Assembly: GCF_003334765.1 (NCBI RefSeq) | Contig: NZ_QOWT01000044.1 | Reading direction: 5' to 3' (one strand) | DNA length: 26,384 nucleotides | Source: Escherichia coli | Lineage (GTDB): Bacteria > Pseudomonadota > Gammaproteobacteria > Enterobacterales > Enterobacteriaceae | Shown: positions 4,225 to 4,318 of the stretch, in pieces | Layout: each line of letters opens with the position of its first letter | How positions within the stretch are numbered: position 1 is the stretch's first letter | Translations under genes and position numbers: made by a program | Notes under the pieces: generated by a model | The model's input: the letters and a program-made list of their open reading frames with translations, nothing else | What the model was told of the DNA's origin: nothing | The model's database searches: none

Positions 4225-4318
4225 GCACACGAAACAGACCTGATATACATGGTTCTGCTAACTGCTTCGCTGCAGTTTCAGTTTACCGGTATATGGGGAC
4301 CAACGCTGTTTCGTGTGC
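4225..4318 (-). promoter_or_regulatory. rnc leader long stem (RNase III autoregulatory substrate)
   Basis: Perfect 13-nt complement GCACACGAAACAG (4225-4237) / CTGTTTCGTGTGC (4306-4318), with further imperfect pairing inside, 34-127 nt upstream of the rnc ATG. Confidence 0.6.

What the first reader, a model, noticed from the sequence alone, without database searches (positions are those of the whole stretch)
4225..4318. Long-range stem in the rnc leader and a strong terminator separating it from lepB
A perfect 13-nt complement at 4225-4237 and 4306-4318, with further imperfect pairing inside, builds an extended duplex 34-127 nt upstream of the rnc ATG. That is the size of duplex RNase III cleaves, fitting autoregulation of rnc by cleavage of its own leader. 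A 12-bp perfect hairpin at 4420-4448 is placed to insulate this transcript from lepA-lepB read-through.
Basis: partly seen in the sequence, partly recalled or inferred. Interest (0 to 1): 0.25.

Follow-up and report, generated by a model that had tools for sequence, protein, structure and literature searches.

The report
E. coli rncO leader and lepB terminator
The long stem is the core of rncO, the well-studied leader that E. coli RNase III cuts in its own mRNA to limit its own synthesis, and the hairpin upstream is a conserved terminator-type structure after lepB, so the finding is correct but ordinary.

Summary
The window is the E. coli chromosome, with lepA-lepB-rnc-era-recO on the minus strand. 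Both inverted repeats exist. The first has 13-nt perfect arms at 4225-4237 and 4306-4318, as stated. The second has 14-nt perfect arms at 4418-4431 and 4437-4450, longer than the 12 bp reported. No repeat of 12 nt or more appeared in 2000 shuffles of the intergenic region.

The first repeat is the base of stem-loop II of rncO (Rfam RF00552, 258.8 bits against a threshold of 43; window 4351 to 4137, minus strand). RNase III autoregulation by cleavage of this leader was shown experimentally in 1989 and 1996 and is still used as a reporter substrate.

Across 104 distinct Enterobacterales leaders the 15-bp base stem is 96% paired, with one clear compensatory pair. The roughly 68-nt apical part is lineage-specific: 74 of 104 leaders have a short hairpin instead. 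Published Term-seq places an RNA 3' end at transcript nt 40, inside the base stem.

The lepB hairpin shows compensatory changes at all 12 predicted pairs across 82 Enterobacteriaceae sequences and is followed by a conserved AATTATTT tail. It is therefore a real terminator-type structure, but its efficiency ("strong", "insulates") was not shown here.

Verdict: already known, low interest.

The parts
4137..4351 (-). rncO, the whole RNase III autoregulatory leader. It runs from transcript nt 1 (window 4351) through the 160-nt 5' UTR into codon 18 of rnc.
   Evidence: Rfam RF00552 matches full length (model 1-214) at 258.8 bits against a gathering score of 43, E=7.9e-62. A UTR of 160 nt is consistent with PMC10037077.
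4360..4388 (-). Sigma-70 type rnc promoter: -35 ACGACA (4388-4383), 17-nt spacer, -10 TAGAAT (4365-4360). The transcript starts at G 4351.
   Evidence: Consensus scan. The block CTAACGACA...GTATAGAATATTCCCCCGAAGT is conserved across Enterobacteriaceae. The start site is inferred from the start of the Rfam model and the 160-nt UTR.
4321..4339 (-). Hairpin I of rncO (transcript nt 13-31).
   Evidence: Rfam consensus structure. Six of its 7 pairs show two-sided changes across 104 sequences, and 86.6% of cells are paired.
4223..4320 (-). Stem-loop II of rncO (transcript nt 32-129), the long irregular hairpin that is the RNase III substrate.
   Evidence: Nucleotides 1-129 of the UTR are the fragment used as an RNase III-cleavable reporter in PMC10037077.
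4306..4320 (-). 5' arm of the conserved 15-bp base helix of stem II (nt 32-46). It contains the published Term-seq RNA 3' end at window 4312 (nt 40).
   Evidence: 96.2% of cells are paired in 104 sequences, and pair nt 45/116 is C-G in 58, A-U in 32 and G-C in 2. The 3' end at MG1655 2704184(-) comes from PMC7815308 supplements and was mapped to the window.
4223..4237 (-). 3' arm of the conserved 15-bp base helix of stem II (nt 115-129).
   Evidence: The majority base is present in 95% of 104 sequences.
4238..4305 (-). Apical, imperfectly paired extension of stem II (nt 47-114). It is lineage-specific: present in Escherichia, Salmonella, many Citrobacter, Raoultella and a few others, and replaced by a loop of about 17 nt with a 4-bp top helix in most genera.
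   Evidence: Alignment A1. Length classes are 74 short (45-58 nt), 28 long (88-122 nt) and 2 intermediate out of 104. It folds as a single rod in 25 of 28 long forms, but z-scores are only +1.2 to -2.9.
4152..4171 (-). Hairpin III of rncO (nt 181-200), inside rnc codons 7-14.
   Evidence: Rfam consensus structure. 94.5% of cells are paired, but there are no two-sided changes, and conservation here is confounded by coding constraint.
4409..4451 (-). Terminator-type hairpin after lepB. The stem-loop is 4451-4417 (14 perfect pairs plus G.U pairs), followed by the tail UAUUUAUG (4416-4409). It starts 11 nt after the lepB stop codon (4465-4463).
   Evidence: -26.6 kcal/mol, z=-5.95, 0 of 200 shuffles; terminator scan. 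It is conserved in position with different stem sequences in 81 other genomes. All 12 predicted pairs have compensatory changes and the AATTATTT tail is over 90% conserved.
3511..4191 (-). rnc coding sequence (RNase III, 226 aa), the regulated gene. era follows with overlapping stop and start codons.
   Evidence: ORF list; RefSeq annotation of identical E. coli DNA.
4463..5437 (-). lepB coding sequence (signal peptidase I), the upstream gene whose transcript the hairpin would end.

Best explanation
The stem is the base of stem-loop II of rncO, the 5' leader of the E. coli rnc-era-recO mRNA.

Proposed mechanism:
- The operon is transcribed from its own sigma-70 promoter, with the start at window 4351 on the minus strand.
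- The 160-nt leader folds into hairpin I (nt 13-31) and a long irregular hairpin II (nt 32-129).
- While intact, these 5' structures protect the mRNA.
- When free RNase III is available it cuts stem II. This removes the protective 5' structure and leaves a monophosphorylated, single-stranded 5' end that RNase E attacks.
- The mRNA then decays quickly and less RNase III and Era are made.
- Abundant competing substrates such as rRNA precursors titrate the enzyme away, which couples its level to growth rate.

The hairpin at 4451-4417 with its U-rich tail is an intrinsic-terminator-type structure that ends (or stabilises the 3' end of) lepA-lepB transcripts 11 nt after the lepB stop codon, upstream of the rnc promoter.

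What was shown here: the structures exist, are non-random, are conserved with compensatory changes, and match the curated rncO family. From the literature, not tested here: RNase III dependence and the RNase E step. Inferred only: that the lepB hairpin actually terminates transcription.
For: - The window is E. coli: 100% identity to several of the 5,426 complete genomes searched, with the lepA, lepB, rnc and era annotations. It is identical to MG1655 over the 271-nt spacer.
- Rfam rncO matches full length at 258.8 bits on the minus strand, against only 23.9 bits on the plus strand.
- The minimum-energy and centroid folds reproduce hairpin I and stem II.
- The repeats are far beyond chance: 0 of 2000 shuffles reach 12 nt.
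- Across 104 distinct Enterobacterales leaders the whole structure is 89% paired against 36-43% for slid controls. The base helix is 96.2% paired, with pair types CG 58 / AU 32 / GC 2 at one pair and GU 68 / AU 21 / UA 5 at another.
- All 12 tested genera, with short or long stem II, score above the Rfam threshold.
- Held papers state the mechanism (PMC3867540; PMC5371410; PMC10582724). PMC10037077 uses UTR nt 1-129, which ends exactly at the last base pair of stem II, as an in vivo RNase III substrate.
- Term-seq in three growth conditions places a dominant RNA 3' end at nt 40, inside the base helix, scored as not Rho-dependent.
- For the terminator: z=-5.95, a hit in the terminator scan, and 12 of 12 pairs with compensatory changes plus a conserved AATTATTT tail.
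Against: - Nothing contradicts the rncO assignment.
- Both arms of the base helix are nearly invariant in sequence (94-95%), so covariation support rests on two or three pairs. The unpaired linker is almost as conserved (91%).
- The leader's folding z-score is only -2.04.
- I could not read the primary papers, so exact cleavage positions are not cited.
- The nt-40 3' end could be an exonuclease stall 9 nt after hairpin I rather than the RNase III cut itself.
- For the terminator, the U-tract is interrupted (UUAUUUAU), and no curated Term-seq 3' end lies at the hairpin. That pipeline keeps only the top peak within 100 bp, and the expected site is about 99 bp from the nt-40 peak.
Confidence: 0.95

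Rival explanations
1. The lepB hairpin is not an efficient terminator. It acts mainly as a 3'-end protective hairpin, or as a leaky terminator, so that part of rnc-era transcription comes from read-through of lepA-lepB transcripts. Such transcripts would still carry rncO and still be subject to autoregulation.
For: The U-tract is interrupted (GAAU-UAUUUAUG). No curated Term-seq 3' end is present at the hairpin in three conditions. Species with short lepB-rnc spacers (Erwinia, Pantoea, Izhakiella, Edwardsiella; 112-178 nt) have no separate hairpin before rncO hairpin I.
Against: A very stable 15-16 bp stem followed by at least 5 U in 8 nt fits the intrinsic-terminator pattern. Structure and tail are conserved with covariation. 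The Term-seq absence may be a clustering artefact. A separate promoter lies just downstream.
Confidence: 0.25
2. The RNA 3' end at transcript nt 40 reflects premature transcription termination or attenuation in the rnc leader rather than RNase III processing.
For: The 3' end is among the dominant curated Term-seq ends and lies 9 nt after hairpin I.
Against: Hairpin I is followed by CGGCACACG, which has no U-tract, and no terminator-like site was found there. The site is scored as not Rho-dependent. It falls inside the duplex that RNase III is known to cut.
Confidence: 0.07
3. The 13-bp inverted repeat acts at the DNA level, as a protein operator or a cruciform, rather than as an RNA stem.
For: Both arms are nearly invariant in sequence across genera, which helix formation alone does not require.
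Against: The helix extends through a G.U pair that is possible only on the minus-strand RNA (GU in 68 sequences). The covariance model scores 258.8 bits on the minus strand against 23.9 on the plus strand. Arm spacing varies from about 17 to about 92 nt between genera, which is unlike an operator. Experiments cited in held papers demonstrate RNA cleavage.
Confidence: 0.02

Closest known systems
rncO (Rfam RF00552), the RNase III autoregulatory leader of the enterobacterial rnc-era-recO operon (Bardwell et al. 1989; Matsunaga, Simons & Simons 1996, as cited in PMC5371410 and PMC3867540)
   Same: It is this element. The organism is E. coli, the sequence is identical to MG1655 over the lepB-rnc spacer, the match to the covariance model is full length, and position, strand, three-hairpin layout and 160-nt UTR all agree.
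   Different: Nothing differs.
The pnp leader hairpin (RNase III cleavage that starts PNPase autoregulation in E. coli)
   Same: This is also a long irregular hairpin in a 5' UTR, and RNase III cleavage there also triggers rapid decay of the downstream message (PMC5371410).
   Different: It regulates a different gene and has no sequence relation. In pnp the final control is exerted by PNPase acting on the processed duplex, whereas in rnc the enzyme that cuts is itself the regulated product.
Canonical intrinsic (Rho-independent) terminators
   Same: A G+C-rich hairpin immediately after a stop codon followed by a U-rich tail, with the structure conserved through compensatory changes.
   Different: The U-tract is interrupted by A residues (UUAUUUAU), and termination at this site was not demonstrated in the data I could read.

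Membership tests
rncO (Rfam RF00552) | Score at or above the curated gathering threshold of the covariance model, over the full model length | tested here: met
   258.8 bits against a threshold of 43, model positions 1-214 of 214, E=7.9e-62, minus strand; repeated on the whole window.
rncO (Rfam RF00552) | Location in the 5' UTR immediately upstream of, and running into, the rnc (RNase III) coding sequence, on the same strand | tested here: met
   The match runs from 4351 to 4137 and the rnc ATG is at 4191 on the minus strand. The rnc annotation comes from identical RefSeq genomes.
rncO (Rfam RF00552) | Three-hairpin architecture (I, long irregular II, III) supported by conservation and compensatory changes | tested here: met
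   89% of cells are paired against 36-43% in slid controls. Helix I has 6 of 7 pairs with two-sided changes. The base of helix II is 96% paired with 5 pairs showing two-sided changes, one of them frequent. Helix III is conserved but shows no covariation, because it lies in coding sequence.
rncO (Rfam RF00552) | Stem II is cleaved by RNase III in vivo and in vitro, and cleavage lowers rnc mRNA stability and expression | not testable with these tools
   This is taken from the literature (PMC3867540; PMC5371410; PMC10037077; PMC10582724). The only indirect data read here is a Term-seq 3' end at nt 40 inside the base helix. The primary papers are not held.
Intrinsic (Rho-independent) terminator | Stable G+C-rich hairpin followed within 0-2 nt by a U-rich tract, downstream of a stop codon on the transcribed strand | tested here: met
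   16 pairs (8 of them G-C), a 3-nt loop and a tail TATTTATG with 5 T in 8. Energy is -26.6 kcal/mol, z=-5.95. The hairpin starts 11 nt after the lepB stop codon.
Intrinsic (Rho-independent) terminator | Structure maintained in evolution rather than sequence | tested here: met
   All 12 predicted pairs have compensatory changes in 82 sequences, and the AATTATTT tail is over 90% conserved.
Intrinsic (Rho-independent) terminator | RNA 3' ends map to the U-tract in vivo, or termination is seen in vitro | tested here: inconclusive
   There is no curated 3' end at MG1655 positions of about 2704260-2704309 in the Adams et al. 2021 tables. Their pipeline keeps only the strongest peak within 100 bp, and the nt-40 peak lies about 99 bp away. 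Other Term-seq supplements were not held or did not list the gene.

The most novel reading that the evidence does not exclude
The functional core of rncO would be only the roughly 19-bp short hairpin built on the invariant 15-bp base helix. The long apical rod of E. coli and Salmonella would be a dispensable, lineage-specific insertion.

The near-invariance of both arm sequences contrasts with the free covariation seen in hairpin I and in the lepB terminator. It would then reflect a sequence-specific requirement beyond pairing, such as RNase III reactivity determinants or a second binding factor.

In addition, the abundant 40-nt 5' fragment (hairpin I plus 9 nt) seen by Term-seq could be a stable RNA with a role of its own rather than a by-product.
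Probability: 0.1. Interest if true: 0.3.

Novelty: already known. Interest (0 to 1): 0.06.

Why it matters
As a discovery it does not matter much. RNase III autoregulation through rncO is a textbook case of post-transcriptional feedback, is curated in Rfam, and is used as a reporter substrate.

The check does show that the first-stage reader can recover a genuine regulatory RNA and its mechanism from raw sequence. It also adds three small points:
- A published 3' end maps inside that helix.
- The lepB hairpin is under structural selection across Enterobacteriaceae.

Tried and rejected
- **Primary papers.** I tried to read Matsunaga 1996 (PMC1369450), Bardwell 1989 (PMC401487) and the Court 2013 review (PMC6311387). 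None is held, so exact published cleavage coordinates are not quoted.
- **Global cleavage maps.** The Altuvia 2018 supplement that lists rnc sites is not held. Gordon 2017 tables and supplements have no entry near rnc or lepB.
- **In vivo evidence for the lepB terminator.** Adams 2021 has no peak there. The supplements of PMC9023263 are not held, and the TERMITe supplements have no lepB or rnc entry. Literature searches for lepB-rnc read-through or old lep-operon papers found nothing usable.
- **Explanations considered and rejected.** Chance repeat; a DNA-level operator (strand asymmetry); a leader attenuator at hairpin I (no U-tract and not Rho-dependent). The mir-2001 hit on the lepB hairpin scores 20 bits against a threshold of 74 and is a generic-hairpin artefact.
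- **Apical part of stem II.** Tested as a conserved helix, it gave only 59-65% pairing on an unreliable alignment, with weak z-scores. It is not claimed as conserved structure.

Full report
**1. What the window is**

A 2.1-kb stretch around the finding is 100% identical to several complete E. coli chromosomes and is present once in all 5,426 complete genomes searched. It is annotated lepA, lepB, rnc and era. The annotated neighbourhood is acpS-pdxJ-recO-era-rnc-lepB-lepA-rseCBA-rpoE, all on the minus strand of the window. In window coordinates rnc is 3511-4191 and lepB is 4463-5437, leaving a 271-nt spacer that is base-for-base identical to MG1655.

**2. The observation**

- The first repeat is confirmed: arms 4225-4237 and 4306-4318, 13 nt, 100% complementary, 68 nt apart.
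- On the transcribed strand the helix continues through a G.U pair and a C-G pair to 15 bp, covering 4223-4237 with 4306-4320.
- The stated distance to the ATG at 4191 (34-127 nt) is correct.
- The second hairpin is longer than stated: 14-nt perfect arms at 4418-4431 and 4437-4450, or 15-16 pairs with G.U pairs (4417-4451).
- In 2000 dinucleotide-preserving shuffles of the spacer, the longest perfect inverted repeat was at most 11 nt, so two repeats of 13 and 14 nt are not chance.
- The lepB hairpin folds at -26.6 kcal/mol with z=-5.95. The 172-nt leader folds at -51.2 kcal/mol with a modest z=-2.04.

**3. What it is**

A scan of the region against Rfam gives a full-length match to RF00552 (rncO). 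It runs from window 4351 to 4137 on the minus strand and scores 258.8 bits against a gathering score of 43 (E=7.9e-62). The palindromic part scores only 23.9 bits on the plus strand.

Mapped onto the transcript (nt n = window 4352 - n), the consensus structure is:
- hairpin I, nt 13-31;
- stem-loop II, nt 32-129;
- a single-stranded linker up to the ATG at nt 161;
- hairpin III, nt 181-200, inside the coding region.

A consensus promoter sits just upstream (-35 ACGACA at 4388-4383, 17-nt spacer, -10 TAGAAT at 4365-4360). [quoted passage not shown] That paper also uses nt 1-129, which ends exactly at the last pair of stem II, as an RNase III-cleavable module in vivo.

**4. How it works (established knowledge, cited from held papers)**

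[quoted passage not shown] This creates an unstructured 5'-monophosphate end that RNase E recognises, leading to rapid decay. Competing substrates such as rRNA precursors relieve the feedback as growth rate rises (PMC3867540).
- The same account appears in PMC5371410, PMC10037077 and PMC10582724. The last adds that era is co-transcribed, translationally coupled and therefore co-regulated.
- All of these papers cite Bardwell et al. 1989 and Matsunaga et al. 1996. I could not open those primary papers, so I quote no published cleavage coordinates.

**5. Independent comparative test**

A pattern for the conserved RNase III N-terminus retrieved 120 loci from the one-genome-per-species collection. 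Of these, 117 encode [10 protein letters not shown].... I aligned 103 distinct leaders plus the window (alignment A1).

On the Rfam structure:
- 89.0% of cells pair, against 36-43% when the 3' partners are slid by 1-3 columns, and 0 of 500 shuffles reach the observed pairing or covariation score.
- The 15-bp base helix is 96.2% paired. One pair is clearly compensatory (nt 45/116: C-G 58, A-U 32, G-C 2) and another is G.U 68 / A-U 21 / U-A 5.
- Hairpin I shows two-sided changes at 6 of 7 pairs.

Two qualifications apply.

First, both base arms are almost invariant in sequence (94-95% majority base), as is the unpaired linker (91%). Covariation support therefore rests on few pairs, and some constraint beyond pairing is likely.

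Second, the apical two-thirds of the E. coli stem is not general. 74 of 104 leaders have a 45-58-nt stem II, made of the 15-bp base, a 2x2 internal loop, about 4 bp and a loop. 28 leaders have an 88-122-nt version, found in Escherichia, Salmonella, many Citrobacter, Raoultella and Phytobacter/Kosakonia-like strains. The remaining 2 are intermediate. The apical inserts fold as single rods in 25 of 28 cases but are hardly more stable than shuffles (z from +1.2 to -2.9). Short and long forms from 12 genera all pass the Rfam threshold (68-231 bits), so this variation lies within the known family.

**6. In vivo end inside the stem**

The curated Term-seq tables of Adams et al. 2021 (PMC7815308) list a dominant RNA 3' end at MG1655 2704184 on the minus strand. 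It lies 121 nt upstream of the rnc ORF, appears three times in the three-condition 3'-end table, and is scored as not Rho-dependent.

I checked the coordinate convention on five entries. The end is at window 4312, which is transcript nt 40 (...CGGCACACG|AAACAG...). That places it inside the 5' arm of the base helix and 9 nt after hairpin I.

This fits an RNase III cut in the conserved base helix. It could also be an exonuclease stall after a cut further up. If it is the primary cut, the 2-nt-staggered partner cut predicts a new mRNA 5' end at nt 123 (window 4229). This is my inference and was not verified.

**7. The lepB hairpin**

- It begins 11 nt after the lepB stop codon and is followed by UAUUUAUG. 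The terminator scan reports it as the only terminator-like site in 4100-4600, with 16 pairs and 5 T in 8.
- In Enterobacteriaceae with spacers of 200-300 nt, a hairpin of -15 to -28 kcal/mol occupies the same position but with quite different stem sequences, for example CGGGGCGCA.../...TGCGCCCCG or CACGTAGCCGC.../...GCGGCTACGTG. It is nearly always followed by AATTATTT.
- RNAalifold on 82 sequences predicts 12 pairs, all 12 with compensatory changes, and the tail is over 90% conserved. The structure is therefore under selection, and it has the form of an intrinsic terminator.
- Whether it is 'strong' is not shown. The U-tract is interrupted, and the Adams tables list no 3' end there. However, their pipeline keeps only the top peak within 100 bp, and the expected site is about 99 bp from the nt-40 peak. 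Other Term-seq resources were not available.
- Species with short spacers (Erwinia, Pantoea, Izhakiella, Edwardsiella) lack a separate hairpin.

**8. Rivals**

- A leaky terminator or 3'-protective hairpin remains possible (about 0.25).
- A leader attenuator as the source of the nt-40 end is unlikely, because there is no U-tract and the site is not Rho-dependent.
- A DNA-level operator is contradicted by the strand-specific G.U pair, by the strand asymmetry of the model score, and by the variable arm spacing.

**9. Verdict**

The element is the already known rncO together with a conserved terminator-type hairpin after lepB. Novelty: already known. Interest: low.

Noticed in passing
window 4312 (minus strand), transcript nt 40: Published Term-seq (Adams et al. 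2021) lists a dominant RNA 3' end here, inside the base helix of rncO stem II. This implies an abundant 5' leader fragment of about 40 nt (hairpin I plus 9 nt) whose fate and function are not discussed in the papers I could read.
   Followed up: partly
window 4238-4305 (minus strand); alignment A1 columns 145-238: The apical roughly 68 nt of E. coli stem II is missing in 74 of 104 Enterobacterales leaders. In the lineages that have an insert, it differs in sequence and length (88-122-nt stems).
   Followed up: yes
window 4371-4389 (minus strand): A 6-bp inverted repeat AACGAC/GTCGTT with a 7-nt spacer overlaps the rnc -35 hexamer. The sequence block is conserved in Enterobacteriaceae, but the 3' half varies in ways that break pairing in some genera, so it is probably promoter sequence rather than a structure.
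   Followed up: partly
window 4401-4422 (minus strand): The terminator tail AATTATTT and the following GATAAAT block are over 90% conserved and lie about -50 to -70 from the rnc start site. They could double as an A/T-rich upstream promoter element.
   Followed up: no
window 7134-7965 (+): Full-length Rfam match to AsrC (RF02746, 507 bits), an antisense RNA family opposite rseC and the lepA 5' region. The same match appears in Raoultella, Klebsiella, Shimwellia, Pantoea and Erwinia loci.
   Followed up: no
window 648-724 (+): Rfam match to ohsC (RF02495, 106.8 bits), the antitoxin sRNA of the shoB type I toxin, which is annotated next to it in identical genomes.
   Followed up: no
window 14432-14474 (-) and 26201-26316 (-): Rfam matches to ES036/CssrF sRNA (49.9 bits) and to 5S rRNA (92.8 bits). 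The latter means the window ends inside an rRNA operon.
   Followed up: no
window 3936, 1903, 469 and 187 (minus strand): Further curated Term-seq 3' ends from Adams et al. 2021 fall inside rnc (3936) and recO (1903) and at two intergenic sites. The one at 187 follows a GGTGCGTCCG/CGGACGCACC hairpin.
   Followed up: no
L087:5531-5811: A contig labelled Chryseobacterium sp. 18061 carries an Enterobacteriaceae-type lepB terminator, rncO and rnc locus. It is most likely a contaminant or mislabelled contig.
   Followed up: no
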